In this document: positions 1,210-40,606 of the stretch, piece after piece
How positions within the stretch are numbered: position 1 is the stretch's first letter
Layout of the letters: each line of letters begins with the position of its first letter
Origin: Candidatus Heimdallarchaeota archaeon
GTDB lineage: Archaea > Asgardarchaeota > Heimdallarchaeia > Heimdallarchaeales > Heimdallarchaeaceae
Direction: 5' to 3'
Length of the DNA stretch: 45,801 bases
Assembly: GCA_030668825.1 (NCBI GenBank)
Contig: DAOVET010000011.1
Span: 1 to 45,801 of the forward strand
Position numbers and translations under genes: made by a program
The notes under the pieces: generated by a model
Seen by the model: the letters and a program-made list of their open reading frames with translations, nothing else
Databases searched by the model: none
Told to the model about the DNA's origin: nothing

Positions 1210-2103
1210 TTGATGTCTAAAGGAAGTCAGGTTTCAAAAGAAGTTCTAGATAAAATGTCAAAACTCATCATTGGGCGAAAGAAAGAGCTAAAAATGATGG
1301 TTAGAGCTATTGAAAAGGATTTACCAACTATTATTGAAGGTCCAGTTGGAACTGGAAAAACAGAGATGGCTAAAGCTTTAGCAGAGAGTCTTGAGAGACC
1401 GTTCATTAGAGTGGATGGTGATGATAGTTTAACCTCTATTAAACTGAAGGGATGGTATGACCCTCCTCTTGTGTTAGAAAAGGGTTTTTCTAGAGATACA
1501 TTCATTTCAGGACCTTTAACTGAGGCAATGGAAGAAGGAGGATTATTTTTCTATAACGAAGTTAATCGAGCACCTTCTGAAACTATTAATGCAGTATTAA
1601 CAGCTTTGGATGAAAAATTGATAACAATACCTCAGCTAGGAGAAATCAAAGCACAAAAAGGTTTCATACCCGTTTTCACCTATAACCCTCACGATACTGT
1701 AGCTACAAATCCTTTACCAAAAGCATTCTACGATCGTTGCATTTGGATTAGTGTTACTCATCAACCTTTAGAAGAAATGATCGAAATTGTAAAACTTCGA
1801 ACATCTAGCACAGACAACTTTCTAATTCGAATATCATGTGAGATTGTTGAAGCTTCACTTAATCATCCTGAGCTTGAATATGGCTCAACTGTTCGCGGAG
1901 CAATACAATTGGTACATCTCTTTAGAGCAAATGAAAGAATGGATGAGATTGAACTTATTGAGCGAGCTATATCTGTTCATTCTCGGAAGATTAGATGTAA
2001 AACATCCAGTAGAAAAAGCGAAGTAAAGATAATAGAAGAAATCATCTCTAAAGTCTTATCTAAATATGACGATAATAGGATTACACGAAAAAAAGAAGAC
2101 TAG
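1210..2103 (+). CDS. MoxR/CoxD-type AAA+ ATPase
   Basis: Walker A GPVGTGKT, variant Walker B FFYNE followed by NRA, LPKAFYDRC arginine-finger region, STVRGAI sensor II. Lies next to a vWA gene, as is typical of MoxR systems. Confidence 0.85.
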   Translation: MMSKGSQVSKEVLDKMSKLIIGRKKELKMMVRAIEKDLPTIIEGPVGTGKTEMAKALAESLERPFIRVDGDDSLTSIKLKGWYDPPLVLEKGFSRDTFISGPLTEAMEEGGLFFYNEVNRAPSETINAVLTALDEKLITIPQLGEIKAQKGFIPVFTYNPHDTVATNPLPKAFYDRCIWISVTHQPLEEMIEIVKLRTSSTDNFLIRISCEIVEASLNHPELEYGSTVRGAIQLVHLFRANERMDEIELIERAISVHSRKIRCKTSSRKSEVKIIEEIISKVLSKYDDNRITRKKED

Positions 2104-2134
2104 GTGACCTTACATCATCCATTGTAGGGGATGA
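2088..2134 (+). promoter_or_regulatory. Putative programmed -1 ribosomal frameshift signal (A_AAA_AAA slippery heptamer plus downstream hairpin)
   Basis: CGA AAA AAA GAA GAC TAG ends the AAA+ ORF. The -1 frame is open from 2079 into the vWA ORF. Possible stems: CCTTACA/TGTAGGG (2108-2129) and TCATCC/GGATGA (2115-2134). Confidence 0.6.
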
Positions 2135-2168
2135 ACCGTTTCTAACTTTCCCATCAAACGCTGGTCGA

Positions 2169-3125
2169 ATGACTATTAACAAGATTCATCTTGAACTTGG
2201 TAAAAAAGAAGATAATATGGCACGTATTATTGAATTAGCTGAAAGAGCTGCAAAGGAAAGTAATCTGGAGGGTTTAAGACTTATTGCGACCAATTACCCC
2301 ATGATTGCTGCTAAAATACTTAATAAAATTGAATTAACTGATCAAATGTTAGACAATCTTACTGGAGAAGATTTAATTCAACTATATTCTAGAACAAAAA
2401 AGCATCTTAATTATAATATTCGCAAGAAACTTCTAGAGAAACTTATACCATTCATAACAGAAAAAGCTAAAACTATTTTCAGACGGGGGATTTCATCTTC
2501 TGTTTCTAGATATGTAAATTATCAACCAGGTGATTCTTGGGAAATTGAAATGACTTTTGAGAAAATGTTGAGTAGTGGAAAGCAAGTTCCAGACTATGAT
2601 TGTATAGTAGTCAAAGAACCTTCAAAAAGAAAGAAAAGTATTGTTATTTGTATTGACAAAAGTCTTAGTGTTTTACAGTTAATCCATCAGATTGTTTTGA
2701 TGGCTTCAGTTTTGTCACTTTCAGTTAAACGAGACAACTTTGCAATAATAGAATTTGATTCAGAAGCTCAATTGTTAAAGCCTATGTCTAAGAGAATCCC
2801 ACCTGAAGAACTAGTAGAACTAATTTTGAATATTGAAAGTGGAGGAAAAACAGATTTAGATAAAGCCTTACAATTGGCCACAAAACAGCTGAAAGATAGC
2901 TCATCAAGAGAAAAAATCATCTATATCATTAGTGACCTTGAGAGAACTATAGGAAAAAATCCGCTCCCAATTATTCAACGTATTCCAGATTTAAGAATAG
3001 TTTATGCAAGAACATACAGACGAGTTTCTTTTGTTGATGAAATCGTTTCTCTACCAAATGTAAAGATGGTTGAATTGAATCATAATTCCGATCTAGTAGA
3101 ATTAACTACCAAACTAGTTTCATGA
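2169..3125 (+). CDS. von Willebrand factor A (CoxE-like) domain protein; possibly also the C-terminal half of a frameshift fusion
   Basis: Intact MIDAS elements DKSLS, GGKTDL and IISD. Frame stays open upstream to 2079. Confidence 0.85.
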   Translation: MTINKIHLELGKKEDNMARIIELAERAAKESNLEGLRLIATNYPMIAAKILNKIELTDQMLDNLTGEDLIQLYSRTKKHLNYNIRKKLLEKLIPFITEKAKTIFRRGISSSVSRYVNYQPGDSWEIEMTFEKMLSSGKQVPDYDCIVVKEPSKRKKSIVICIDKSLSVLQLIHQIVLMASVLSLSVKRDNFAIIEFDSEAQLLKPMSKRIPPEELVELILNIESGGKTDLDKALQLATKQLKDSSSREKIIYIISDLERTIGKNPLPIIQRIPDLRIVYARTYRRVSFVDEIVSLPNVKMVELNHNSDLVELTTKLVS

Positions 3126-4460
3126 TTTAGTTTTCTTACTCTTTCTAAGTGCGATTATTTGGTCTACAATAATTATAGCTAATCCAATCCCACTCAATAT
3201 TCCTCCTTCTATAACTGCTTGTTTTCTATGTATAACATAATTTATAACAATTCTAGCTTCATAAATGAAAGATTCAGTTGTGTTCCACTCATCTACAAAT
3301 GTAATTAAGAAAACTGTTTCTTCTTCCTCAGTTTCGTTCATGGCTATAAGGATGCCAGAAGCTATTTCGTCTCCAATTAGTCTAGACTCGAAAATACTTT
3401 CACCTTTTGCTTGATTAGTTATGATTGAATAAGAAGCAATCATCTGTTCATAGGTGATATTTTTATCATAGTAGTTATTCGTCAAATTTTCAAAATTATC
3501 AAAAAAGCTTATGAAAGTATCATTGGTGGAAGTTAGGACTGTAACATTATAATCAACAAGACCTGTTTCACTGCTAAAATTAACTAAAGTAGTAGCTTGA
3601 GGTTTATTCGCAAAAGCTATACCCAGAGTTGGATCAAAGAGTGATTGCGTACTCTTGTATTCATATGAAATTTCATAATCAATAGATCTATTCAAACCGA
3701 TTATTGGTCCTAGCATTAAGCCTAAGAATATTAGAAATATTCCAAAGAGTGTGAGTTGTCTCTTTATCAAACTCCACGTTGCTTTTAAATTTGCATATAA
3801 TTTCTTCCGGTCTTCTACTGGTTTCTTTTTCTTTCTTCTGAATGCTGGAAATAGGATCACTAACATCCATACAATAAATAAGAGAACATGAAATGTGAAC
3901 TGAGCGATGTATAAATCCAGAAATTCTCCATAAATTGATTGAAGTTCTTCTTGAGACAGATCTATGAAAAACATCCTTTGCCCTTCAGTCATGGAATAAA
4001 TCGACCAATCTGGAATCAGACCAACAAAGGTCAATGGAAAGAACAACCATGCTTCGTTTCTGAATCTAAGATAAACTGAAAGATCATACAGATTATTATC
4101 TAAAGGCCAGAATAACATAAGTGGTCCCCAGCTTAGGTCTAGGAAGATATGAATTATCCACATCAGTGAAGCTAATTTAACAAATCTTACAATCTTATGA
4201 GTTGCTGATTCTATTGGACTTGCGTCTTTATTGATCTTATCTATTACTAGCATACTGAAAAGAATGAACGTGGGAAGAATCAAGCTGTGCGTGTAAGACC
4301 TGTGATATCCAATAAGTAAATCTATATCGGGGAGAACTGCTACAAGATTAATAAGTATAAACTCCCACCTATGTTCTTTGTAGTATGCCTTATTCTTCTT
4401 TGATAATAATAACCATACAATAATACCTTGTACAGCTAAATGTGTGGGTGTATATGTCAT
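3120..4460 (-). CDS. Membrane-bound metal-dependent hydrolase (YdjM/DUF457-like) with an extra C-terminal extracellular domain
   Basis: N-terminal H, LPDID, HRSYTHS and HIFLD motifs; several hydrophobic helices. Confidence 0.75.
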   Translation of the reverse strand: MTYTPTHLAVQGIIVWLLLSKKNKAYYKEHRWEFILINLVAVLPDIDLLIGYHRSYTHSLILPTFILFSMLVIDKINKDASPIESATHKIVRFVKLASLMWIIHIFLDLSWGPLMLFWPLDNNLYDLSVYLRFRNEAWLFFPLTFVGLIPDWSIYSMTEGQRMFFIDLSQEELQSIYGEFLDLYIAQFTFHVLLFIVWMLVILFPAFRRKKKKPVEDRKKLYANLKATWSLIKRQLTLFGIFLIFLGLMLGPIIGLNRSIDYEISYEYKSTQSLFDPTLGIAFANKPQATTLVNFSSETGLVDYNVTVLTSTNDTFISFFDNFENLTNNYYDKNITYEQMIASYSIITNQAKGESIFESRLIGDEIASGILIAMNETEEEETVFLITFVDEWNTTESFIYEARIVINYVIHRKQAVIEGGILSGIGLAIIIVDQIIALRKSKKTKS

Positions 4461-4627: not shown

Positions 4628-7600
4628 ATGCACATAGATATGCAATCCAGTCCAAGTGAAAGGTTCAGAGAGTTCTTTCAAGCATATCAAGATGAAAATG
4701 GGAGACATATATATGTTGAACAAGTTCAAAAAATGTCTTTAGAAGGGCTTTTATCCCTTTTTGTAAATTATGATGATTTATTACGATTTGATCCTGTATC
4801 TGCTAAAGCACTACGAGAAAAACCTGAAGATACAATCAAAGCAGCAGATGATGCTCTAGTAGAGGTATTGAAGATTGAGGACCCTATTTATGCTTCTAGT
4901 GAAGAAACCGAAGGTTTATTTCATGTTCGATTTTCAAATCTTCCAGATTTAGTTGATCTACGTCGTTTACGATCAGTTCATTTAGGAAGGTTGTTAGCTG
5001 TTGAAGGTATCATTATTCGTCAAAGTGTAGTTAAACCTCTTTTAATTCAAGGTATTTTTCAATGTACTAGAAAAGGGTGTCAAGAAGTTCATTTTGTCCC
5101 ACAAGATGGAGGATATTATACAGAACCATCAAAATGCAATAATCCACAGTGTACAAATACTAGTTCTTTCAAACTCTTAACTAAAGATAAAAATACAATT
5201 TATACAGATTTTCAATCTGTCACTGTTCAAGAAAAGCCAGAAAGTCTTCCTCCAGGTCAAATTCCTCGTTCTGTCCCAGCAAGATTAGTTGGCGATTTAG
5301 TAGACACTGTCAGAGCAGGAGATAGAGCAATCGTTTCTGGAATTCTCCGTATGAAAGTAAAAGGGAAACAAAAAGGAAAACTGGCAACATTCGACCCCTG
5401 GTTAGACGTAAATTTTGTTTCATCTAGAGAAAAGGAGTTTGAAGAGATTGATATTGATCCTGATACGGAACAAGAAATTTTAGCTCTTTCTACTGACATT
5501 AACATCCATAGAAGAATAGTCAGATCTGTTGCCCCTTCCATTTATGGAATGGAGACAATAAAAGAAGCTTTAATAACTGTTCTGTTTGGAGGAGTATCCA
5601 GAGTTGCTCCTGATGGCATGAAACAGAGAGGAGAATCTAACCTATTAATGATAGGAGATCCTGGGGTCGCCAAGTCACAATTGCTTCAATATGTTCATCG
5701 TCTTGCACCTAGAGGGTTACTTACATCAGGAAAGGCAAGTTCTGCAGCAGGTTTAACCGCAGCTGTTATCAGAGATGCTGAAACTGGAGAGTTTGGTTTA
5801 GAAGCAGGAGCTTTAGTGCTAGCAGATAGAGGAGTATGTTTAACCGGTGATACAGAAATATTAATGTCTTCAGGAGAACTACTTCCAATTCAAGAAATAG
5901 TAGATAATGATTTAGAAGGAGAAGTTATTTCCTTTAATCAACTTACATATGATTTGAATACAAACAAAATTGTTTCAAAATCGAAAAGGGAAAGTGAAAA
6001 AGTTTACAATCTAGAATTTTCTTCTGGAGAAATTCTCAAAGCTTCTGAAGAGCATCCTTTTCCAGTCTGGGATAATGGTTTAATTTGGAAGAAAGCTGTT
6101 GATTTAAAGGAAAATGAAGTCATTATTGATTACAGAAATTACCCTTTTTCAAAAAAACAGAACAATGAAGGGATAGATAAAGAAATTACAGAAGATTTGG
6201 CTGAGTTATTAGGGTTAATTGTATCTGATGGAAATCTATCAAAAGAAAAATATCGAATTACTTTCTATTCAAAATCTATTGAATTACTGCAAAGATTCCG
6301 TGATCTGGTACATAGTATTTTCAACATAGATGCTAAAGAATATACTGACAAAAGAAGCAACATTAAAAGATTGTATTTTAATGATAAGGAAATACATCAG
6401 TATCTTAAAAGTCTTGGAATTCCTAATGAAAACAAATCAAAAAGTAGGTGTGTACTAAAAGAAATTCAAAATTCGTCTTCGGATATTATTCAATCTTTTA
6501 TAGCAGGAGTAATCAATGGAGATGGATCTATTTCCAACAGAAAATCTGGTGGTATAGTTGACATAGTTATTGGAAATAAAGAAACAGCTGAATTTTACAA
6601 AAAACTATTCAGAAAAATAGGGATTATAGCAAAAATAAATAAAACTATTCAATTGGGAGGGGGAGTTGTTAAGAAAGGCGTATATCTCACCTATAAAATT
6701 TCTATTACAGGAGTATCAAATATCCGAAAATTGGACTCATCTAGATTAATCTCATACAAAAAAGATACTTACTTCAAGATTATAAATCGACAAGATAAAT
6801 TTGATAAAATCTACAAAATTGATAAATTAATCAAGTCTCTTTCAAATCAAATACCACATGGACATAAACACATTTTATACAACAATAGCATTAGAAAAAG
6901 TCAACTCAGCAAGGTAGGTATTAGTAGGAGAAACTTAGTAAATGCATTGGAACAGTTAAGCCAAATTGAGGGTATTCAAGAAAGTTCTGAATACAAAAAT
7001 CTTCAAAGAATAATTTCGAAGAATTTGAGTTTTATTATTCTTAGAAAGAAGAAGAAAATACAATCTCAAACAGTCTATAACATTCAAATAGCAAATGATG
7101 AAACATATTTTGCGAACTTTATACTTGTTCATAATTGTATGATAGATGAGTTCGATAAAATGAATCCAACAGATAGATCCTCAATTCATGAAGCGATGGA
7201 ACAACAATCTTATCACCCAAGTTTTGAAATATCATTCTTAGATGGACACAAAGAGGAAATTGGAAGATTTGTTGATGATCTCTTTAAAAAATATGAAAAA
7301 TTAAAAATCCTAGGTAAAGATTGTGAAATACTTTCAGTTGAAAAGTATGATTATAACATTTTAACAACCGATTTCAAGAATGTATTTCAAACAAATGTCA
7401 ATAGAATCAGCAGACATATAGCTCCAGAAGAGTTTATTAGGATAAATTACTCAAATGATGTAGAATTACTAGTAACTCCTGAACATCCAATTTATGTTTT
7501 AAATAATGATGAAGTTATTACTGTTGATGCGGAAAATGTTAAGAAAGGTATGTTAGTTCCTAGTGTATCAAACAAAAAGATAGAGTTAGATAAGGTAAAG

Positions 7601-8515
7601 ATAATTAAAACTGAAAAACGATATAATGAAGGAGAATATGCAACTAAGTGGGTTTATGATGTCACAATTGAGCCAACTGAGAATTTCATAAGTCACGGAC
7701 TTGTTCTTCATAATACCGTCAGTATAGCAAAAGCTGGTATTGTCGCTCAACTCAATGCAAGAACAGCGATTATTGCAGCTGCTAATCCTCGTTTTGGAAG
7801 GTATGAAGATTCTCGCCCTCCTGTTGAGAATATTAATCTTCCCCCAACTATTTTATCGCGTTTTGATTTAATCTATGTTATTCGTGATGTACCAGATGCT
7901 GAGACAGATAAAAGAATGGCTAGACATATCTTGGAATTACGAAGAGGTCATGTTATTGAAGATACTGAACCGACGATTACTATGGATCTGTTAAGAAAGT
8001 ATATCAGTTATGCAAAACAACACATTCAACCCTCTCTTACTGATGATGCCATGGAGCGAATTGAACAATTTTACTTAAACCTTAGAAAAGAATCTGATGA
8101 TTCATCTGCAATTGCAATCACCCCAAGGTACCTAGAAGCTATTATTCGTTTATCGGAATCACAAGCAAGGATGGCTCTTAAAGAAGATGTAACTATAGAT
8201 CATGTTGAAGCAGCCATAAATCTCCTAAGAGTTTCATTAGAGCAAGCTGGTAAAGATCCAGTTACTGGTCGAGTTGATATAGATTATCTTTTGTCTGGTA
8301 CAACTAAGACTTCACGTTCTAAAATGCAAATAATCATTGATATTATGAAAGAAGAATCGAGAGTGGGAAGCTCAGATGTTGTGTCGATAAGAAGAATAAA
8401 AGAACTAGCTAAAGAGCAGAATATTGATGATGAATTTGTAGACAGAGTAATAAATCAACTTCGCAGTAATGGAGAGATTTATTCTCCAAGTGATGGTTTT
8501 GTGAAATTAGCTTGA
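4628..8515 (+). CDS. mcm: MCM replicative helicase precursor with two inteins (about 693 aa after splicing)
   Basis: C4 zinc finger, Walker A GDPGVAKSQ, SSAAGLTAAV, Walker B IDEFDKM, ILSRFD arginine finger, ITPRYLE, C-terminal winged helix. Confidence 0.97.
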   Translation: MHIDMQSSPSERFREFFQAYQDENGRHIYVEQVQKMSLEGLLSLFVNYDDLLRFDPVSAKALREKPEDTIKAADDALVEVLKIEDPIYASSEETEGLFHVRFSNLPDLVDLRRLRSVHLGRLLAVEGIIIRQSVVKPLLIQGIFQCTRKGCQEVHFVPQDGGYYTEPSKCNNPQCTNTSSFKLLTKDKNTIYTDFQSVTVQEKPESLPPGQIPRSVPARLVGDLVDTVRAGDRAIVSGILRMKVKGKQKGKLATFDPWLDVNFVSSREKEFEEIDIDPDTEQEILALSTDINIHRRIVRSVAPSIYGMETIKEALITVLFGGVSRVAPDGMKQRGESNLLMIGDPGVAKSQLLQYVHRLAPRGLLTSGKASSAAGLTAAVIRDAETGEFGLEAGALVLADRGVCLTGDTEILMSSGELLPIQEIVDNDLEGEVISFNQLTYDLNTNKIVSKSKRESEKVYNLEFSSGEILKASEEHPFPVWDNGLIWKKAVDLKENEVIIDYRNYPFSKKQNNEGIDKEITEDLAELLGLIVSDGNLSKEKYRITFYSKSIELLQRFRDLVHSIFNIDAKEYTDKRSNIKRLYFNDKEIHQYLKSLGIPNENKSKSRCVLKEIQNSSSDIIQSFIAGVINGDGSISNRKSGGIVDIVIGNKETAEFYKKLFRKIGIIAKINKTIQLGGGVVKKGVYLTYKISITGVSNIRKLDSSRLISYKKDTYFKIINRQDKFDKIYKIDKLIKSLSNQIPHGHKHILYNNSIRKSQLSKVGISRRNLVNALEQLSQIEGIQESSEYKNLQRIISKNLSFIILRKKKKIQSQTVYNIQIANDETYFANFILVHNCMIDEFDKMNPTDRSSIHEAMEQQSYHPSFEISFLDGHKEEIGRFVDDLFKKYEKLKILGKDCEILSVEKYDYNILTTDFKNVFQTNVNRISRHIAPEEFIRINYSNDVELLVTPEHPIYVLNNDEVITVDAENVKKGMLVPSVSNKKIELDKVKIIKTEKRYNEGEYATKWVYDVTIEPTENFISHGLVLHNTVSIAKAGIVAQLNARTAIIAAANPRFGRYEDSRPPVENINLPPTILSRFDLIYVIRDVPDAETDKRMARHILELRRGHVIEDTEPTITMDLLRKYISYAKQHIQPSLTDDAMERIEQFYLNLRKESDDSSAIAITPRYLEAIIRLSESQARMALKEDVTIDHVEAAINLLRVSLEQAGKDPVTGRVDIDYLLSGTTKTSRSKMQIIIDIMKEESRVGSSDVVSIRRIKELAKEQNIDDEFVDRVINQLRSNGEIYSPSDGFVKLA
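5837..7135 (+). mobile_element. Intein 1 in MCM with LAGLIDADG homing endonuclease (433 aa)
   Basis: Junctions ADRGV|CLTGDT and ILVHN|CMIDEFD; block B ASEEHPF; LAGLIDADG motifs LLGLIVSDG and IAGVINGDG. Confidence 0.95.
7208..7714 (+). mobile_element. Intein 2 in MCM, Ser1 mini-intein without endonuclease (169 aa)
   Basis: Junctions AMEQQ|SYHPSF and LVLHN|TVSIAKAG; block B VTPEHPIY; block F WVYDVTIE..NF. Confidence 0.93.
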
Positions 8516-24455: not shown

Positions 24456-24516
24456 AAAGAGAACTCTATTCTTCTCATTTTGTTGAGCTTATATATTTCA
24501 GTTTATGTGAAGTAAT

Positions 24517-25596
24517 GTGTCAATAGAGATTGAAAGTATAAGTAAACAATTTACAAAAAAGGGAAAAGAAATAAATGCATTAGATAATATATCATTAAAA
24601 ATCAAAGAAGGCTCATTTGTGGGTCTTCTAGGCCCAAATGGAGCCGGTAAAACAACACTTACAAAGATTCTTACAACTCTTCTTCTTCCTTCAAGTGGAG
24701 AAGCTTATATTGATGGTATTTCAATTAAAGAGGATAAGAAAATCAGGCAAATTATAGGAGCTGTTTTTGGAGAAACAGGGGGAAGAAGTTTATATTATAG
24801 ATTATCAATTTTAGACAATTTGATGTTCTATGGAACTTTAAGTGGTTTAAGTAAAACAGTAGCAAAAAAAAGAATTCAATCTCTCTTGAATTATTTCGAT
24901 TTGGAGGAGAAAAAGAATACTCTAGTTATGAAGCTTTCTACAGGTATGAAGGCCAAAGTTCTTCTCATTAGATCCTTAGTTCCCTTTCCAAAAGTTTTAT
25001 TGTTAGATGAACCAACATTAGGATTCGATGCTGAAAGTTCTGAAAAAGCTAAAGATTTACTAAATGAATTTAATAGAGAATTTGGAACGACAATCCTCCT
25101 TACTAGTCACAATTTTCCAGAAATAGATGAACTAACTTCTAGATTGATTCTAATTGATTCAGGAAAAATCGTTCAAGACTGTGCTCCCGCGGTTTTCAAG
25201 CAGAAAGTTATTCAAGAATATATTCATCTAATCTTCTCATTACCTCCACTTCCAGCCGATGGTTTCAAAATGTCTCAATTACCTACAGAGATTTTCAAAA
25301 AACTTGTTAGAGATTCTGCTGGAGCTGAGGTTACTTCGCTTAAGGAAAAAGATGGCTTAAATTTCGTTTATGAAGTGACAATTCAGCCTATTGAGTATTC
25401 GCTTAATGAAACAATTTCTAGAATTACTGTACTTATCTTACGAGCCAGTGGAGAAATCTACAAAATTGCACCGTATATGCCTAGTCTCAAAGAATCGTTC
25501 TTAGCATTTCTAGCTATGAACAAAACAAATTCTGCTCTTGAACCAGAAGCAAAAGAAGAGATATTCACTTTCCCAATGCAAGAGGAGGATGTTTAG
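24517..25596 (+). CDS. ABC transporter ATP-binding subunit (DrrA-like)
   Basis: GPNGAGKT, signature LSTGM, LLLDEPT and TSH motifs. Confidence 0.93.
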   Translation: MSIEIESISKQFTKKGKEINALDNISLKIKEGSFVGLLGPNGAGKTTLTKILTTLLLPSSGEAYIDGISIKEDKKIRQIIGAVFGETGGRSLYYRLSILDNLMFYGTLSGLSKTVAKKRIQSLLNYFDLEEKKNTLVMKLSTGMKAKVLLIRSLVPFPKVLLLDEPTLGFDAESSEKAKDLLNEFNREFGTTILLTSHNFPEIDELTSRLILIDSGKIVQDCAPAVFKQKVIQEYIHLIFSLPPLPADGFKMSQLPTEIFKKLVRDSAGAEVTSLKEKDGLNFVYEVTIQPIEYSLNETISRITVLILRASGEIYKIAPYMPSLKESFLAFLAMNKTNSALEPEAKEEIFTFPMQEEDV

Positions 25597-25598
25597 AA

Positions 25599-26462
25599 AT
25601 TACTTATCCTCTTGTCGATGTACTTAATTCATTTAATTATGCATCTAAGAGAAGTAACCCCTTTTCAAGAATTAGTATCATCTTCAAATCAAAAATAAAA
25701 ATGGCGTTGAGTTACAAAAGTAGTTATCTAATGACATTTTTCCTTAATCTTATTACAATCGTTATGTACTTCTTCTTTGGTAAAATGAACCCAGACATGA
25801 CTGTGTTTGGGATTCCATCAACTTATTTAGAATTTTGTTTTCTAGGTCTATGTTTACAGATGATTATAGGGACATCTCTAGCAACAGTTTGTGGAAGTAT
25901 TTACAATGAAATAGTTTCAGGAACTTGGTCTTATTTACTGTTTCAATTCAATTTTATTGAGTATTCAATAGGGAGTACTTTGGCTGGTGTTGTTCTTTCT
26001 TCACTTTCTGTTTTTGCAGCTTTATTCTTAGCTTATTTATTCATGGGAAGTTTTTATGTTATTTCAATTCAAGAAGTTATGTTAGTCATCGTTCTATTCA
26101 TGTTAATTTTGATAGCTCATATGTCGATTTCCATGATTTTTGCTTCGTTCACAATATACTATCAAAAAAACAGTGGTTTAGTTCCCCTTCTTTATCAACT
26201 TACAAAAACATTCACAGGTATTGTTTTCCCACTTTCATTACTTAAGGGGTTTTCAATGATAGTATCTAGAGCTCTTCCCTTGACGTATGGACTTGAAGCT
26301 TTACATTCAGTAGTATTAACGGATCAAACTAATTGGCAGCTAATTTTAACAAATAGCATGATATTGTTGATTTCTTCAATAGTTATTGGAGTTTTTGCTA
26401 TTTTCTTAGCATCTAAAAGCATCGCTCATTCAAAAAAACACAATAAGGTAGATTGGTATTAA
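25599..26462 (+). CDS. ABC-2 type permease; probable non-canonical (ATT) start upstream of the first ATG at 25701
   Basis: Six-TM ABC-2 pattern (E..SGT, GIVFPL, LPLTYGLE). The open upstream frame aligns gaplessly with the N-terminus of the next permease. Start position is inferred. Confidence 0.8.
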   Translation: MTYPLVDVLNSFNYASKRSNPFSRISIIFKSKIKMALSYKSSYLMTFFLNLITIVMYFFFGKMNPDMTVFGIPSTYLEFCFLGLCLQMIIGTSLATVCGSIYNEIVSGTWSYLLFQFNFIEYSIGSTLAGVVLSSLSVFAALFLAYLFMGSFYVISIQEVMLVIVLFMLILIAHMSISMIFASFTIYYQKNSGLVPLLYQLTKTFTGIVFPLSLLKGFSMIVSRALPLTYGLEALHSVVLTDQTNWQLILTNSMILLISSIVIGVFAIFLASKSIAHSKKHNKVDWY

Positions 26463-28011: not shown

Positions 28012-29370
28012 CTACAAACTCACTAACTTAGTAGGTACTTCTTCTTTCAGGATTCTTGGTTTAGCAATATCCTTGACAAAGTTGAGAATGTATTCTTGAT
28101 TTCTTTTATCACCATGAATTAAAACTATCTCATTTGCTCCTGATTTCTCCATTACTGCTTTCAAACCATCTACTGAACTATGTCCAGAGTATGGAAATTT
28201 CATCACTTTTGCCTTTAAGTTGATTTTCTTTGGTCGCCCATAGCTTGTTTGAAGTGTTATGTTTTTGTTCCCATCATATATGTCTCTTCCAGTTGTCCCT
28301 TCTACTTGGTAGCCAGTAAATCCTAGGACATTATTTGGGTTGGTTCCACATAGTTCCAAATAAGTGTGAATAGGGCCACCTTCTAGCATACCGGAAGTAG
28401 TAACAATGATTGAGCCCTCTTCATTCTTTGAGATGTATTTTCTAGAATTGTTTGTTCTATTTGAAATTGAGGGAACAGGAATGAAATTTTGTTTTTCGAA
28501 AGGTGAATAGAGACCGGCATCTTTCAGCTGACTGAGAAAACGTTTAGATACCCACTTATCACTTAGAAAGTGTTCTGTAACCATATTCATATGGTTTATC
28601 ATTCCATCAATGTAGATAGGTACATCATTCAAATCGTCATCTAAAGCTAAGGTGATCAACGTTTCCTGAGACCTACCTACTGCAAAAGATGGTAAAAGCA
28701 TTTTATTTTTTTCATCTGCTATTTGTTTAGCCATAAGTCTAAGACCAACATCTATCTTTGATCTTTCAGGTACATAACGATCTCCATTTGTGGATTCTAT
28801 TAATAGAACATCAATTTCCTCATCTGGTAAATCATATCCATCAAACATAGGAGTTATTCTATCATTTATGTCAGCAGTATAGAGAATCAATGTTCCTTCC
28901 CAATCGATAAGTATTTGAGCTGCTCCTAGAACGTGCCCAGCATTAATTAAACGTGCAGTAATTCCATCTGCTACTTTGAATGGTTTTTCATATTCTGTAG
29001 TTTTTATTCTTCGAAATACTTTATCCAAATCAGACTCTGACCAATGTCTTCTTCCTTCAATTTTTAGATGATCTAGCCAGAGTTTGTAAACTATTTCCTT
29101 GGTAGGATGAGTCATGTAGTAATTTCCTTCAAAACCATGCTTAGATAAAGCGGGAATATACCCAGAATGATCTATATGTGCATGACTTAGAAGAACTGAA
29201 TCAACTTTGTGTGCTATACTATCTACTCCTTTTGGAGCAATAGACATTTGTTTAGGGACCAATTGTAGACCACAGTCTAGAAGTATATTATGATCTCTAT
29301 TGTGTAGAAGAAAACTGCTTCTTCCCACATAGTCAGTAGCACCGTAAGCTGTAATATTTATATCGTTCAT
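28012..29370 (-). CDS. beta-CASP metallo-beta-lactamase ribonuclease (aCPSF-type, no KH domains)
   Basis: VGRS, LLDCG, SHAHIDH, AGHVLG, IEST, FAVGRSQE, SGMLEGG, GYQ.EGT.GR, SGH and IHGD motifs. Confidence 0.92.
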   Translation of the reverse strand: MNDINITAYGATDYVGRSSFLLHNRDHNILLDCGLQLVPKQMSIAPKGVDSIAHKVDSVLLSHAHIDHSGYIPALSKHGFEGNYYMTHPTKEIVYKLWLDHLKIEGRRHWSESDLDKVFRRIKTTEYEKPFKVADGITARLINAGHVLGAAQILIDWEGTLILYTADINDRITPMFDGYDLPDEEIDVLLIESTNGDRYVPERSKIDVGLRLMAKQIADEKNKMLLPSFAVGRSQETLITLALDDDLNDVPIYIDGMINHMNMVTEHFLSDKWVSKRFLSQLKDAGLYSPFEKQNFIPVPSISNRTNNSRKYISKNEEGSIIVTTSGMLEGGPIHTYLELCGTNPNNVLGFTGYQVEGTTGRDIYDGNKNITLQTSYGRPKKINLKAKVMKFPYSGHSSVDGLKAVMEKSGANEIVLIHGDKRNQEYILNFVKDIAKPRILKEEVPTKLVSL

Positions 29371-29504
29371 TATTTACGCCTTGTAATTTTGAGTACTAAA
29401 AATAAAGTAATTTACCCCAAAGGTTATTTCATTATTCTCTTCTTCAATTATGCCGTAACTTCATAATAACTAAAAACGTTTTGATGTACTTAATTGAATA
29501 TTTT

Positions 29505-29512
29505 TTTATATA
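29505..29512 (+). promoter_or_regulatory. TATA box of the ESCRT-II-like gene (probably a leaderless transcript)
   Basis: TTTATATA lies about 28 nt upstream of the ATG at 29540, the usual archaeal spacing. Confidence 0.5.
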
Positions 29513-29539
29513 AGGATGGGTAGATTCATCTTGATAATA

Positions 29540-30283
29540 ATGGTACCTGATAAAAAAAATGGTAAACAAAAGAAGCAAAAAGAAGAAAAAAAGGACCTTC
29601 GTTCGGATATTTCAGATGCCTACAGATCATTTGATGCAGGGCTGAAGGATGCTCAAAGGCAAGATGAAGACAGAAGGAAAGAAGTCTTTGAAGAAGGAAT
29701 AGAGAGGATTGAAAAGAAATCAGAAAAAGATCTAATAGCTTCTAAAATGCTAGTTGGTAAGGTACTTGAACTTCGCAAAAGAGCAGGGATGGCAGAAACA
29801 ATAGGAACTGCAGGCAAAGTAAAAACTCCAATGTTGTTTGGTAAAGATGAATTCAAACAAAAACTTGTTCAAGAAATAATGGTCATAGGAACTGAAGAAC
29901 TAGAGGATATTGGTAGTGCAATTACAGTTGTAAACCTCATAGATTACTTCAGGGAAACAAGACCAAACTGGGAGGTAGGAACAGGAGAGATTCTAGAAGT
30001 AATACGCAAACTAGAAGAGAAAGAAGTAATTCCACCAAAAGTAGATCTTGGAGAAGAAGAGGTTTTGATTAGATTCAAACCAATCGAAATGTCAAATGAT
30101 ATACAAGAGATATTAATGCTAGCTACAGGATTACCATCATTATCGGTTGATAAAGTTGCAAGCCATTTAGGATGGTCAATGGAAAGAGCTCAAAGCACGT
30201 TGACATTGATGATGAAGATGGATTTAGCAATACTGGAAGAAGAATCTGGAGATTATTACTTCCCTGGAATTGCTAAAATGTAA
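29540..30283 (+). CDS. ESCRT-II Vps22/Vps36-like (EAP30 family) tandem winged-helix protein
   Basis: Pattern F...L..EI..I, G..IT...L, EI...I.KL, P.E.S.D...IL.LA, LGWS.ERA...L, YYFPG parallels eukaryotic SNF8/Vps22 as recalled. ATG at 29540 preferred over 29516 because of TATA spacing. Confidence 0.8.
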   Translation: MVPDKKNGKQKKQKEEKKDLRSDISDAYRSFDAGLKDAQRQDEDRRKEVFEEGIERIEKKSEKDLIASKMLVGKVLELRKRAGMAETIGTAGKVKTPMLFGKDEFKQKLVQEIMVIGTEELEDIGSAITVVNLIDYFRETRPNWEVGTGEILEVIRKLEEKEVIPPKVDLGEEEVLIRFKPIEMSNDIQEILMLATGLPSLSVDKVASHLGWSMERAQSTLTLMMKMDLAILEEESGDYYFPGIAKM

Positions 30284-38347: not shown

Positions 38348-38442
38348 ATGAACATATGTAGAGTAAAACTTTTTAAAAGCATAACGTTCCTTTGCTCAAT
38401 TAGTTCAAATTGATTTTCGTGTTTGAAGAAAAAGGTGAACTC

Positions 38443-39525
38443 ATGTCGAAAAAAGTTAAAGTTGCAATTGCGGGTCTGGGTAACTGTGCATCAGCTCTGG
38501 TACAAGGTCTAGAATATTACCAAAACGCTGATGAGAAAGATTTTGTACCTGGGGTTATGCATGTTAAGTTTGGTGAGTATCATATTTCAGATGTTGAAGT
38601 AGTAGCTGCTTTTGAGGTTAATACTAAGAAGATTGGGAAGGATATTTCTGAAGCTATTTGGCAAAGTCCAAATTGTTGTAATAAGTTTTCAGATGTCCCT
38701 CATAAAGGAATAACTGTCCTACCAGGACCTATCCATGATGGTGTTGCACCACATATGATAGAACCATTTCATTGCTATGACTCTTCAGAAGTACAACCGA
38801 TAAATATTGCAGATGCTTTAAAGGAGTCAAATGCTGATGTTTTAATTAACTTCCTTCCTGTAGGAAGTGAAGAAGCATCAAAAGTATATGCACAAGCTGC
38901 ATTAGATGCTAATGTTGCTTTTGCAAATGGGATTCCAGCATTTTTAGCTTCGAAGCCTGAATGGGCTCAAAAGTTCAAAGATAAGAATATTCCAATAGCA
39001 GGAGATGATATAAAATCTCAGCTTGGAGCAACGATTTTGCATCGTGTTCTTGTATCACTAGCTCATGACAGAGGAATTAAGCTTGATGAAACCTTCCAAT
39101 TAAATATTGGTGGAAACACTGATTTTGAGAATATGAAAAAGGAATATAGATTGACTACAAAGAGAATATCAAAAACTGAAGCAGTCACAAGCATGTTACC
39201 TTATGAAGTTCCTACTAGAATCGGTCCATCTGACTATGTTCCATTTCTAGATGATGAAAAGATCTGCTATCTTTGGTTGAAGGGTAAGAATTTTGGAGAA
39301 CAACCAATAACTGCTCAATTAAAGCTAAGTGTGCAAGATTCACCTAATAGTGCTGGTGTTATGATCGATGTAGTAAGATCTCTGAAAATTGCTTCAGACA
39401 GAAACATAGGTGGTCCTCTAATAGGCGTCTCAAGCTACTTCTTTAAACACCCACCAAAACAAATCAAAGATTCTGAAGCTAAAGAACTCGTTGAAAAATT
39501 CATAAGAGGAGAAATAACTAACTGA
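38443..39525 (+). CDS. ino1: myo-inositol-1(3)-phosphate synthase
   Basis: GLGNCAS, GDDIKSQ.GAT..HR, N.GGN.DF, K.ISKT, DSPNSAG and FKHPP motifs; AGGTGA Shine-Dalgarno before the ATG at 38443. Confidence 0.95.
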   Translation: MSKKVKVAIAGLGNCASALVQGLEYYQNADEKDFVPGVMHVKFGEYHISDVEVVAAFEVNTKKIGKDISEAIWQSPNCCNKFSDVPHKGITVLPGPIHDGVAPHMIEPFHCYDSSEVQPINIADALKESNADVLINFLPVGSEEASKVYAQAALDANVAFANGIPAFLASKPEWAQKFKDKNIPIAGDDIKSQLGATILHRVLVSLAHDRGIKLDETFQLNIGGNTDFENMKKEYRLTTKRISKTEAVTSMLPYEVPTRIGPSDYVPFLDDEKICYLWLKGKNFGEQPITAQLKLSVQDSPNSAGVMIDVVRSLKIASDRNIGGPLIGVSSYFFKHPPKQIKDSEAKELVEKFIRGEITN

Positions 39526-39532
39526 GGTGTTA

Positions 39533-40606
39533 ATGGTGAAAAATGACGTTATAAAAATAGCAATCGCTGGTATCGGGAATATTGCTTCAGGTTTACTTCA
39601 GGGCATTAATTATCTCAATATCTTTGAAGATAAAAAGGAAAAACTTCTTTATCCGAAAATCAGCAGTTATGAAGCTAAAAATATTCGAATTGTTGCTGCC
39701 TTTGATGTTGATGCTGATAAGGTCGGAAAAGACTTAGAAGAGGCTATATTCGCACCAATCAATAGTACTCCTCAATTTGTGAATGTTGAAAAGACCAATG
39801 TTGAAGTTCACAAAGGACCTGTGAAGGATGGCCTTTCAAAACACCTACTTGAAGTAATAGTAGTAGCAGAAGGTTCTGAAGCAAATGTTACTGAAATATT
39901 AAAGGATTCAGGAGCCGAGATTCTTATTTGTGCTCTTCCTTCAGGCGCAGAAAGCGCTGTTGAAACATATGCTCAAGCAGCTCTTGATGCAGAAGTAGCA
40001 TTCATAAATTGCACACCAACTAGTATTGCTAGCAGCCCTGAATGGGCAAGGAAATTCAAAAAAGCAAATGTATGTGTATTAGGTGATGATTTACAGTCCT
40101 TATCTGGAGGAACAGTTCTTCATAAAGGATTTTTAGATCTTCTAAGGGAACAAGGTGTTATCATAAAGGACACCTATCAACTAGATGTTGCTGGAGGGCT
40201 TGAAACACTGAATACACTTGATGATGATAGAAAACAATACAAACGTGAAGTAAAAGAAAGAACTATTAAACAATCTTTTGGCAATGATATAAATCTCGCA
40301 AGTGGGACATCAGACTATCTAGAATTCTTAGGAAATAGGCGAGTGGGTCATTTCTGGATACGAGGAGAAGGATTCATGGAGATGCCAGTTAAAATAGATA
40401 TTAGGTTAGAAACATTAGATGGCCCTAATGCAGCGGGAACCCTTGTAGATGTAATAAGAGCAACAAAAGTAGCTATCAATCGAGCAGGAAGTGGTCCGAT
40501 AAGTTCAATCTGTGCTTACGGTTTCAAGGCTCCTCCTGTTACAACAGATAGATATACAGCACATATTTGGTTTAGTGAGTATATACAAGGAATTAGAAGT
40601 GACTAA
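39533..40606 (+). CDS. Divergent inositol-phosphate-synthase paralogue
   Basis: Collinear with the upstream gene (GIGNIAS, AAFDVD..KVG.D, YAQAAL, FKAPP) but with altered active-site motifs; GAGGTG Shine-Dalgarno at 39524-39529. Start is approximate. Confidence 0.85.
   Translation: MVKNDVIKIAIAGIGNIASGLLQGINYLNIFEDKKEKLLYPKISSYEAKNIRIVAAFDVDADKVGKDLEEAIFAPINSTPQFVNVEKTNVEVHKGPVKDGLSKHLLEVIVVAEGSEANVTEILKDSGAEILICALPSGAESAVETYAQAALDAEVAFINCTPTSIASSPEWARKFKKANVCVLGDDLQSLSGGTVLHKGFLDLLREQGVIIKDTYQLDVAGGLETLNTLDDDRKQYKREVKERTIKQSFGNDINLASGTSDYLEFLGNRRVGHFWIRGEGFMEMPVKIDIRLETLDGPNAAGTLVDVIRATKVAINRAGSGPISSICAYGFKAPPVTTDRYTAHIWFSEYIQGIRSD

What the first reader, a model, noticed from the sequence alone, without database searches (positions are those of the whole stretch)
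1210..3125. Putative programmed -1 frameshift joining a MoxR-type AAA+ ATPase to its vWA partner
Seen: the AAA+ ORF ends CGA AAA AAA GAA GAC TAG, so A_AAA_AAA (2088-2094) is an X_XXY_YYZ heptamer in the correct phase two codons before the stop. The vWA ORF is in the -1 frame, which is stop-free from 2079 to the ATG at 2169 (..KKRRLGDLTSSIVGDEPFLTFPSNAGR-M). That ATG has no Shine-Dalgarno motif. The 65-nt gap is GC-richer than other spacers and can form hairpins (CCTTACA/TGTAGGG, TCATCC/GGATGA, and a longer-range GACTAG/CTGGTC). Established: frameshifted chlD-type chelatase genes use a poly-A slip between AAA+ and vWA domains to make two subunits from one gene. Inference: this locus makes a 297-aa AAA+ protein and a roughly 638-aa AAA+-vWA fusion at a fixed ratio, building a ring with a sub-stoichiometric tethered adaptor. 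I know of no described case for an Asgard MoxR/CoxD-type pair.
Basis: partly seen in the sequence, partly recalled or inferred. Interest (0 to 1): 0.85.

Follow-up and report, generated by a model that had tools for sequence, protein, structure and literature searches.

The report
Frameshift fuses Asgard ATPase to adaptor
A Heimdallarchaeal gene pair appears to make both a free AAA+ ATPase and an ATPase–vWA fusion from one message by a conserved backward ribosome slip, adding a rare cellular case of programmed frameshifting in archaea.

Summary

- **Signal.** The AAA_5 (MoxR/NorQ-like) ORF ends CGA AAA AAA GAA GAC TAG. A_AAA_AAA (2088-2094) is in X_XXY_YYZ phase. The vWA ORF is in the -1 frame, open from 2079.
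- **Conservation.** All 46 Heimdallarchaeia genomes holding both ORFs keep the -1 relation, an in-phase A-rich heptamer and a nearby 0-frame stop (0-2 codons later in all but four g14 loci). The "spacer" encodes a conserved -1 peptide. The vWA start codon is absent in many orthologues.
- **Stimulator.** A hairpin 8 nt downstream is conserved, with covariation. Four orthologous loci with A10-A11 runs lack it.
- **Fusions.** Kariarchaeaceae encode a stand-alone AAA+ next to an in-frame AAA+-vWA fusion with a degenerate Walker A. This parallels ChlI/ChlD.
- **Assembly.** Contigs from three independent studies confirm A7.
- **Paralogue.** A second AAA_5-vWA pair in the same genomes uses U_UUU_UUC the same way.

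It works like frameshifted chlD but fails the chelatase membership tests. The closest solved relatives are NorQ and NorD. Literature searches found no description.

Ribosomal versus transcriptional slippage, the product ratio and the client are untested.

The parts
1210..2103 (+). 0-frame ORF: AAA_5 (MoxR/NorQ-like) AAA+ ATPase, 297 aa from TTG 1210 (296 aa from ATG 1213). Walker A GPVGTGKT at 1339-1362. Walker B LFFYNE at 1543-1560, with Asn where Asp is usual.
2088..2094 (+). Slippery heptamer A_AAA_AAA in X_XXY_YYZ phase.
   Evidence: In-phase and conserved in 46 of 46 two-ORF genomes. The preceding codon varies (CGA, AGA, TCA, CCA, ACA, TTA) but always ends in A.
2101..2103 (+). 0-frame stop TAG, two codons after the heptamer.
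   Evidence: The stop lies 0-2 codons after the heptamer in 28 of 28 loci.
2103..2137 (+). Candidate stimulatory hairpin, starting 8 nt after the heptamer. Outer pairs 2103-2105 with 2135-2137; inner stem CCTTACA 2108-2114 with TGTAGGG 2123-2129.
2094..2168 (+). Trans-frame linker, read in the -1 frame (RRLGDLTSSIVGDEPFLTFPSNAGR). Previously it would be taken for an intergenic spacer.
   Evidence: It is disordered in the model.
2079..3125 (+). -1 frame open reading frame (348 codons + stop): linker, helical domain and vWA domain. MIDAS DxSxS at 2655-2669. The ATG at 2169 may also allow separate initiation.
3120..4460 (-). Convergent YdjM-like membrane protein. It is syntenic with the pair across the family and is not shown to be functionally linked.

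Best explanation
One transcription unit makes two proteins by programmed -1 frameshifting.

- Most ribosomes translate the AAA_5 (MoxR/NorQ-like) ATPase and stop at TAG 2101. This gives a protein of about 296 aa.
- A fraction slip back one base on A_AAA_AAA (2088-2094), helped by the hairpin at 2103-2137.
- Those ribosomes continue through the former 'spacer' into the vWA frame. The product is a fusion of about 638 aa: AAA+, flexible linker, helical domain, then a vWA domain with an intact MIDAS motif.

Inferred function: free and fused protomers co-assemble into an AAA+ ring that carries one or a few covalently tethered vWA adaptors. The ring remodels an unknown client, or inserts a cofactor into it.

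Shown here: the conserved recoding signal and the coding status of the linker. Inferred: the slip itself, its efficiency, co-assembly and the client.
For: 1. **Frame and heptamer.** 28 of 28 two-ORF orthologous loci keep vWA in the -1 frame. They carry an in-phase A_AAA_AAA (26 loci) or A_AAA_AAC (2 loci), with the 0-frame stop 0-2 codons later. 18 of 18 further loci of genus g14 do the same. That makes 46 genomes in two families. 23 of 23 named Heimdallarchaeota/Hodarchaeota MAG loci, largely the same genomes, agree.
2. **Selection on the nucleotide.** The codon before the run changes (R, S, P, T, L) but always ends in A.
3. **Coding linker.** The -1 peptide GDxxxxIVGDEPF is conserved. Mean pairwise differences at -1-frame codon positions 1/2/3 are 0.32/0.26/0.44, the coding pattern also seen in the flanking ORFs.
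4. **No conserved start.** No start codon stands at the vWA N-terminus in 4 of 26 loci of the window's family. No ATG/GTG/TTG stands in that stretch at all in 14 of 20 g14 loci.
5. **Hairpin.** It starts 8 nt after the heptamer. 94.7% of cells are paired, against 25-60% when the partners are slid. Six pairs show double changes, and 0 of 500 shuffles reach the covariation score. The 45-nt stretch is among the 2.5% most stable windows of the two genes in 19 of 28 loci. g14 has a different GC-rich hairpin at 6-8 nt. It is missing exactly in the four loci with A10-A11 runs.
6. **Natural fusions.** 638-aa in-frame fusions exist in Kariarchaeaceae, collinear across the junction. A stand-alone AAA+, 53% identical to the window's, lies immediately upstream. 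The fused copy is 34% identical, and Walker A is degenerate in 4 of 4 fusions. A second lineage (g33) has an in-frame fusion plus an unlinked stand-alone AAA+ that is 72-74% identical to its AAA half. 10 of 10 longer relatives tested are AAA_5 + vWA.
7. **A7 is real.** Contigs from three independent studies bridge 2088-2094 without gaps.
8. **Independent recurrence.** In a paralogous pair, 20 of 26 loci are in the -1 frame, and 19 of those 20 carry in-phase U_UUU_UUC/A/U, A_AAU_UUU or G_GGU_UUU next to the stop. In a phylum-wide sample, 14 of 16 split loci have a long -1 ORF across the stop.
9. **Precedent.** An A_AAA_AAA cassette from a Mg-chelatase gene gave 10% frameshifting in E. coli (PMC3711429, passage read). 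A_AAA_AAT works in Sulfolobus fucA1 (PMC8211752, passages read).
Against: - There is no direct evidence of the slip: no RNA reads, ribosome profiling or peptides.
- The window's own 81-nt region does not fold better than shuffles (z -0.61). The hairpin overlaps conserved codons, so peptide and RNA constraints are confounded.
- In g14 the stem core is nearly invariant and shows little covariation.
- In the window's family, 21 of 26 loci keep an ATG and one a TTG at the vWA N-terminus, so separate initiation of a 318-aa vWA protein cannot be excluded there.
- 12 of the 13 in-frame fusion loci seen in the phylum sample show no stand-alone AAA+ within 1.5 kb. A free AAA+ product is therefore not obligatory in every lineage.
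- Related genomes are not independent observations.
- One hairpin locus is weak (L017).
Confidence: 0.8

Rival explanations
1. The same two products arise by transcriptional slippage. RNA polymerase adds one A (or drops two) in the A7 run, and a subset of mRNAs then encode the fusion in frame. The ribosome does not slip.
For: - Homopolymeric A runs support slippage.
- Four orthologous loci have A10-A11 runs and have lost the hairpin.
- A third paralogue family has A9-A10 runs next to the stop.
- Poly-A length correlated with efficiency in the chelatase cassettes (PMC3711429, passage read).
- In those long-run lineages this may be the main route.
Against: - The heptamer phase is fixed in 46 of 46 genomes, which polymerase slippage does not require.
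- Eight g14 loci have only A6 followed by C or U.
- The paralogue uses mixed heptamers (A_AAU_UUU, G_GGU_UUU, A_AAC_CCU) that suit only tandem tRNA slippage.
- A hairpin at 6-8 nt is the ribosomal stimulator geometry.
- A7 is short for efficient polymerase slippage in the bacterial cases described (PMC3711429, passage read).
Confidence: 0.12
2. These are two ordinary adjacent genes. The vWA protein starts at ATG 2169, by its own initiation or by re-initiation after TAG 2101. The -1 relation and the A-run are inherited accidents.
For: - An ATG is present in the window and in 21 of 26 loci of its family (one more has TTG).
- Most genes here lack a Shine-Dalgarno anyway.
- A7 runs are common.
- In family f6, the paralogous pair is not in the -1 relation and mostly has an ATG close by.
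Against: - The start codon is missing in 4 loci of the window's family, and no ATG/GTG/TTG stands in that stretch in 14 of 20 g14 loci.
- The sequence upstream of the ATG is conserved as a -1-frame peptide with a coding substitution pattern.
- The gap has 46% GC, against 23-27% for the two longer true spacers nearby.
- Frame, heptamer phase and stop distance hold across 33-45% protein identity despite changes in gap length.
- In-frame fusions are collinear through the junction.
Confidence: 0.06
3. The frameshift is an assembly error in a homopolymer, or a recent inactivating mutation that made a pseudogene of a fusion gene.
For: Homopolymer runs are error-prone, and in-frame fusions exist in relatives.
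Against: - Contigs from three independent studies show A7 with no gaps.
- The same state is found in 46 separately assembled genomes, with both ORFs intact.
Confidence: 0.02

Closest known systems
Frameshifted chlD (fs-chlD) Mg/Co-chelatase genes (Antonov et al. 2013, PMC3711429; Kuznetsov et al. 2022, PMC9227772)
   Same: - A -1 frameshift on an A-rich heptamer, including A_AAA_AAA, sits at the junction of an AAA+ module and a vWA module.
- It gives a short AAA+ subunit and a long AAA+-vWA subunit from one gene.
- Relatives are in-frame fusions.
- It is usually annotated as two adjacent genes.
- It occurs in archaea (Methanocaldococcus, Methanococcus).
   Different: - The AAA+ module here is AAA_5 (NorQ/CbbQ/GvpN type), not ChlI type. 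There is no PF01078 match, and TIGR02031 scores 22 bits against a cut-off of 499.55.
- No CobN/ChlH was found in the genome.
- The family is confined, as far as searched, to Asgard archaea.
NorQ-NorD (and CbbQ-CbbO) MoxR-type AAA+/vWA remodelling pairs
   Same: - NorQ is the best single-domain sequence match among solved structures (55 bits).
- The best fold match of the modelled vWA part is NorD in NorQD complexes (9qhe_G, E 8.9e-09).
- Both have an AAA_5 ring plus a vWA adaptor with a MIDAS motif.
- In the solved NorQD entries there are six NorQ chains per entry and one NorD chain G. This is read from chain counts.
   Different: - NorQ and NorD are separate proteins from separate genes. Here the adaptor is covalently tethered through recoding.
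- Scores are far below family cut-offs.
- The client (NO reductase or Rubisco in the known cases) is unknown here.
Sulfolobus solfataricus fucA1 -1 PRF (PMC8211752, PMC1616953)
   Same: A cellular archaeal gene with an A-rich heptamer (A_AAA_AAT), a putative downstream stem-loop and a -1 slip.
   Different: - fucA1 needs the slip to make its only functional product, and it is restricted to close relatives.
- Here two products are expected, and the signal is conserved across families.
Midasin/Rea1 (eukaryotic AAA_5 ring with one tethered MIDAS domain)
   Same: It combines AAA_5-type modules with a vWA/MIDAS domain. Its architecture is six AAA modules to one MIDAS domain. The MDN1 MIDAS domain is rank 7 in the fold search.
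   Different: The high total score to midasin (127 bits) is a sum over several AAA repeats. The best single repeat scores 35-40 bits, below NorQ. No specific relationship is shown.

Membership tests
Canonical -1 programmed ribosomal frameshift site | X_XXY_YYZ heptamer in the 0-frame phase | tested here: met
   A_AAA_AAA at 2088-2094. It is in phase in 46 of 46 genomes.
Canonical -1 programmed ribosomal frameshift site | Downstream RNA structure about 5-9 nt after the heptamer | tested here: met
   A hairpin lies at 2103-2137 with an 8-nt spacer. It shows covariation and local stability. The single-sequence z-score is not significant.
Canonical -1 programmed ribosomal frameshift site | -1 frame open across the site and encoding a conserved product | tested here: met
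Canonical -1 programmed ribosomal frameshift site | Trans-frame protein actually produced | not testable with these tools
   No RNA holder was listed, and no proteomic data are available.
fs-chlD / BchD-ChlD chelatase subunit | ChlI-type AAA+ module (Pfam PF01078; NCBIfam TIGR02031 or TIGR02442 above cut-off) | tested here: not met
   There is no PF01078 match at E <= 0.01. TIGR02031 scores 22 bits against 499.55. TIGR02442 scores 14.4 bits against 779.45.
fs-chlD / BchD-ChlD chelatase subunit | C-terminal vWA domain with MIDAS motif | tested here: met
   VWA_2 matches. DxSxS, T and D are invariant.
fs-chlD / BchD-ChlD chelatase subunit | Large CobN/ChlH partner in the genome | tested here: not met
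   PF02514 was not found in the own genome, which is 90.6% complete. The controls matched.
MoxR AAA+ (AAA_5 / NorQ-CbbQ-GvpN group) with vWA partner | AAA_5 domain with Walker A and the Walker B glutamate | tested here: met
   AAA_5 matches at E 7.5e-20. GPVGTGKT is present. Walker B reads hhhhNE, with Asn in place of Asp.
MoxR AAA+ (AAA_5 / NorQ-CbbQ-GvpN group) with vWA partner | Adjacent vWA/MIDAS protein | tested here: met
NorQ/NorD, CbbQ/CbbO or GvpN as equivalogs | Score above the family cut-off, and the client (NO reductase, Rubisco, gas vesicle genes) present | tested here: inconclusive
   GvpN TIGR02640 scores 70.5 bits against a cut-off of 266.8, which is not met. Client genes were not searched.

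The most novel reading that the evidence does not exclude
Across Asgard archaea, AAA_5 rings are fitted with vWA/MIDAS adaptors mainly by recoding. Lineages switch among -1 ribosomal frameshifting (A- or U-type heptamer plus hairpin), long-run slippage, possible +1 shifting, and hard-wired fusion with or without a duplicated free ATPase. The slip efficiency would set roughly one tethered MIDAS domain per six-membered ring. That is the architecture which eukaryotic midasin/Rea1 has fixed covalently. The Heimdallarchaeial module would then be a living analogue, or even a relative, of the precursor of midasin.
Probability: 0.07. Interest if true: 0.9.

Novelty: new member of a known kind. Interest (0 to 1): 0.72.

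Why it matters
**Few archaeal cases are known.** A 2021 review names one experimentally shown cellular -1 frameshift in archaea (Sulfolobus fucA1), plus a suggested chelatase case and some viral ones (PMC8211752, passages read). This locus would add a deeply conserved, multi-family cellular case in Asgard archaea, the closest prokaryotic relatives of eukaryotes.

**It corrects annotation.** What databases list as an 'AAA family ATPase' followed by a separate vWA protein is probably one recoded gene with two products.

**It gives a testable rule for assembly.** MoxR-type machines may set their ring-to-adaptor stoichiometry by slip efficiency.

**It offers natural comparisons.** Lineages differ in how they reach the two products: heptamer plus hairpin, longer A run without hairpin, and fusion with or without a duplicated free ATPase. 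These mirror the evolution proposed for chlI/chlD.

Tried and rejected
- **RNA evidence.** No RNA holder was listed. The one run labelled RNA-Seq (X19, probably DNA) did not cover the site.
- **Midasin.** It was the top PDB sequence hit (127 bits). I rejected it as a specific relative because the score sums several repeats, each weaker than NorQ.
TCATCC/GGATGA and GACTAG/CTGGTC are 58.6% paired across orthologues and do not exceed shuffles.
- **RNAalifold on the g14 set.** It gave a poor consensus. A hand-written stem showed conservation but little covariation.
- **Rfam.** No family matched 1900-2400.
- **Shine-Dalgarno argument.** It is uninformative.
- **Profile search of PDB with the vWA alignment.** Only generic vWA domains appeared.
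- **Neighbourhood.** A YdjM-like membrane protein and MCM are syntenic within the family. They are convergent or unrelated in function. Distant loci have other neighbours: M48 peptidase and a cation ATPase. No client could be proposed.
- **CobN search.** Negative.
- **Literature.** These searches found no description of this case: 'frameshifting + MoxR + von Willebrand', 'Asgard + ribosomal frameshifting', 'midasin + Asgard', 'Heimdallarchaeota + frameshift' and 'Asgard archaea + frameshifting'.
- **Not seen.** Supplementary tables of PMC3711429 and PMC9227772, which list frameshift clusters, were not seen and could hold related clusters. The 2020 chlD paper cited by PMC9227772 was not seen either.
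Full report
**Observation**

The sequence is as described. ORF1 (1210-2103; ATG at 1213) is an AAA_5-type AAA+ ATPase: Pfam AAA_5 E 7.5e-20, and the best NCBIfam hit is GvpN, far below its cut-off. It ends CGA AAA AAA GAA GAC TAG. The A7 run at 2088-2094 is therefore an in-phase X_XXY_YYZ heptamer, two codons before the stop.

ORF2 (ATG 2169 to 3125) is a vWA protein with an intact MIDAS motif. It lies in the -1 frame, which is open from 2079. A slip on the heptamer would give 295 + 343 = 638 residues.

In one genome this could be chance:
- A7 occurs 36 times in the window, fewer than the 71 +/- 13 in shuffles.
- Most genes here lack a Shine-Dalgarno motif (6 of 33 ORFs have one), so its absence before ATG 2169 says nothing.
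- A genome-wide count puts the site in context. Of 113 pairs of long frames overlapping in the -1 relation, 6 carry an in-phase heptamer. Three have it within 13 nt of the stop, and two of those three are AAA_5/vWA pairs.

**Comparative evidence for the pair itself**

The vWA protein was searched in 61 related genomes and 30 loci were returned. One locus lacks the ATPase at a contig end, and one is an in-frame fusion.

In all 28 remaining loci:
- the vWA frame is -1 relative to the ATPase;
- an A_AAA_AAA (26 loci) or A_AAA_AAC (2 loci) heptamer is in phase;
- the 0-frame stop follows 0-2 codons later;
- the -1 frame is open across the site.

[quoted passage not shown] Together these are 46 genomes: 26 in the window's family and 20 in g14. 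Protein identity to the window falls to 33-45%. Named records place them in Heimdallarchaeota and Hodarchaeota MAGs, and 23 of 23 such loci with both genes agree. They are largely the same genomes.

Several features point to selection on the recoding signal and on the linker:
- The codon before the run varies (CGA, AGA, TCA, CCA, ACA, TTA) but always ends in A. Selection therefore acts on the nucleotide, not on the residue.
- The supposed spacer encodes a conserved -1 peptide (GDxxxxIVGDEPF in the window's family, RDxxPA in g14).
- Its substitutions follow the coding pattern in the -1 frame: 0.32/0.26/0.44 at positions 1/2/3, against 0.30/0.19/0.52 and 0.28/0.14/0.51 in the flanking ORFs.
- Its GC content is 46%, against 23-27% in the two longer true spacers nearby.
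- The ATG at 2169 is replaced by non-start codons in 4 of 26 loci of the window's family. In 14 of 20 g14 loci no ATG, GTG or TTG stands in that stretch at all.
- Contigs assembled from three independent studies bridge the run with no gap, so A7 is not an assembly error.

**RNA structure**

A hairpin begins 8 nt after the heptamer. Its outer pairs are 2103-2105 with 2135-2137. Its inner stem is CCTTACA with TGTAGGG.
- Across 25 orthologues it is 94.7% paired, against 25-60% when the partners are slid.
- All six inner pairs show double changes.
- No shuffle of 500 reaches its covariation score.
- The 45-nt stretch is among the 2.5% most stable windows of the two genes in 19 of 28 loci, and within 10% in 27 of 28.
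- It uses codons that are rare here, GGG and CCG.

There are limits. The window's own 81-nt region is not more stable than shuffles (z -0.61), and the stem overlaps conserved codons.

g14 carries a different GC-rich hairpin (GCGGGA/UCCCGC) 6-8 nt after the heptamer. It is very stable but nearly invariant, so it shows little covariation. The four loci that lack it are exactly those with A10-A11 runs. This fits a shift towards stimulator-independent or transcriptional slippage there.

No Rfam family matches.

**Natural fusions**

In the Kariarchaeaceae-like genome the orthologue is an in-frame fusion of 638 aa, collinear with the window's two frames through the junction. The KK of the heptamer aligns with KK in the fusion.

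Immediately upstream lies a stand-alone AAA+ gene of 277 aa. It is 53% identical to the window's ATPase and has an intact Walker A. The ATPase half of the fusion is only 34% identical. Its Walker A has Arg in place of Thr/Ser in 4 of 4 fusions, and the KK has decayed in 2 of 4. This is the hard-wired version of 'short plus long product', and it parallels ChlI/ChlD.

A second lineage (g33) has an in-frame fusion and an unlinked stand-alone AAA_5 gene that is 72-74% identical to its ATPase half.

A profile search of 1.84 billion representatives found 38 relatives at E <= 1e-30. Many are 560-710 aa long, and 10 of 10 of these tested are AAA_5 + vWA. Sources name them 'AAA family ATPase' or 'MoxR-like ATPase' from Asgard MAGs.

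Against a universal need for a free ATPase: 12 of 13 fusion loci in the phylum sample show no second AAA+ within 1.5 kb.

**The phenomenon recurs**

A paralogous AAA_5/vWA pair in the same genomes (own genome contig C91, outside the window) was examined in 26 loci.
- In 20 loci the vWA frame is -1. In 19 of those an in-phase U_UUU_UUC/A/U, A_AAU_UUU or G_GGU_UUU sits 0-1 codon before the stop. Often a strong hairpin follows, and a conserved -1 peptide precedes any ATG.
- One locus lacks a canonical heptamer.
- Six loci, all of one family (f6), have the vWA in the +1 frame after TTT TTT CGG, with an ATG nearby in five. They may be separate genes or +1 sites.

In a sample of 301 Asgard genomes, 30 loci related to a fused protein were returned:
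- 13 are in-frame fusions;
- 1 is unresolved;
- 16 are split.

Of the 16 split loci, 14 have a long -1 ORF across the ATPase stop. Thirteen of these carry an in-phase heptamer within 22 nt of the stop, and several of the thirteen have A9-A10 runs. The other 2 are in the +1 relation.

**What it is and is not**

It works like frameshifted chlD, in which a -1 slip between an AAA+ module and a vWA module gives two chelatase subunits. A 7-A heptamer gave 10% frameshifting in E. coli (PMC3711429 and PMC9227772, passages read).

It is not a member of that family:
- there is no ChlI-type domain;
- TIGR02031 scores 22 bits against a cut-off of 499.55;
- no CobN was found in a 90.6% complete genome.

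The closest solved relatives are NorQ by sequence (55 bits as a single domain) and NorD by fold. The model has pLDDT 81.5, and its first 24 residues, the linker, are disordered. Midasin's higher total score is a sum over repeats.

**Mechanism and likelihood**

| Reading | Odds |
|---|---|
| Programmed recoding used at this site | about 0.9 |
| of which ribosomal -1 frameshifting | about 0.8 |
| of which transcriptional slippage | about 0.1 |
| Ordinary separate genes | about 0.06 |
| Assembly error or pseudogene | about 0.02 |

Co-assembly of free and fused protomers into a ring with few tethered adaptors, and a chaperone or cofactor-insertion role, are inference from the NorQD, CbbQO and chelatase precedents. 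The CbbQO stoichiometry is recalled and comes from no call.

**Novelty**

Five literature searches found no description of this case. A 2021 review lists very few archaeal frameshift cases (PMC8211752, passages read). Supplementary cluster lists of the chelatase papers were not seen.

Noticed in passing
own genome contig C91, about 28100-29820, minus strand (locus L099); also L100-L117, L124: A paralogous AAA_5/vWA pair also has the vWA in the -1 frame. An in-phase U_UUU_UUC (or UUA, UUU, A_AAU_UUU, G_GGU_UUU) sits right before the stop. A conserved -1 peptide (FFLEEGxGDLYK...RPFVFRGKM) precedes the first ATG. This holds in 20 of 26 loci, and 19 of the 20 have a canonical heptamer.
   Followed up: partly
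L118-L123 (family f6) and L145: Here the paralogous vWA is in the +1 frame after AAG TTT TTT CGG/CGT, where the Arg codon is rare. The peptide SFFGP is conserved in the vWA frame upstream of an ATG that one locus lacks. This could be +1 frameshifting or separate genes.
   Followed up: no
L132, L135, L136, L138-L141 versus L142, L144 (and the unresolved long ORF of L137): A third AAA_5/vWA family has A9-A10 runs next to the ATPase stop and a 306-334 aa -1 ORF. Members of the same genus carry in-frame fusions of 599-624 aa.
   Followed up: partly
L054/L098, L093, L097 (g14 orthologues): Loci with A10-A11 runs have lost the GC-rich hairpin that the loci with shorter runs (A6-A9) keep (18 of the 22 rows). 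In L093 the 5' arm is deleted.
   Followed up: partly
window 1543-1560, and orthologues: Walker B reads hhhhNE (LFFYNE). Asn stands in place of the usual Asp. The same is seen in the Kariarchaeaceae stand-alone copy (FFFNE) and in the paralogue (LFLNE). The fused Kariarchaeaceae copy has Gln.
   Followed up: no
window 4628-8515 (+): A 1295-aa MCM helicase ORF contains inserted intein-like segments (for example C-LTGDTEIL...VHN-C). Its N-terminus is syntenic with the pair across the family.
   Followed up: no
own genome contig C19, 2378-5943 (+): Another MoxR-like AAA+ ORF is followed by an 863-codon vWA-containing frame in the -1 relation (13-nt overlap). There is no canonical heptamer, and the first ATG is 233 nt downstream. 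A TTG or GTG start is possible.
   Followed up: partly
window 24511-26462 (+) and own genome contig C11 (-), 38385-39874: Two other -1 overlapping long-frame pairs carry in-phase heptamers (T_TTC_CCA 25 nt before the stop; C_CCA_AAT 13 nt before). The first has an AT-rich region before a downstream ATG and is probably chance.
   Followed up: no
window, whole: A7 runs are depleted relative to dinucleotide-preserving shuffles: 36 against 71 +/- 13, and all 100 shuffles have at least 36. This fits selection against slippery runs in general.
   Followed up: no
cluster 8: One 90%-identity cluster of a 642-aa fused protein also holds a 296-aa 'midasin' and a 183-aa vWA fragment from the same 3320-nt contig. 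This may be a split or frameshifted variant of a fusion gene.
   Followed up: no
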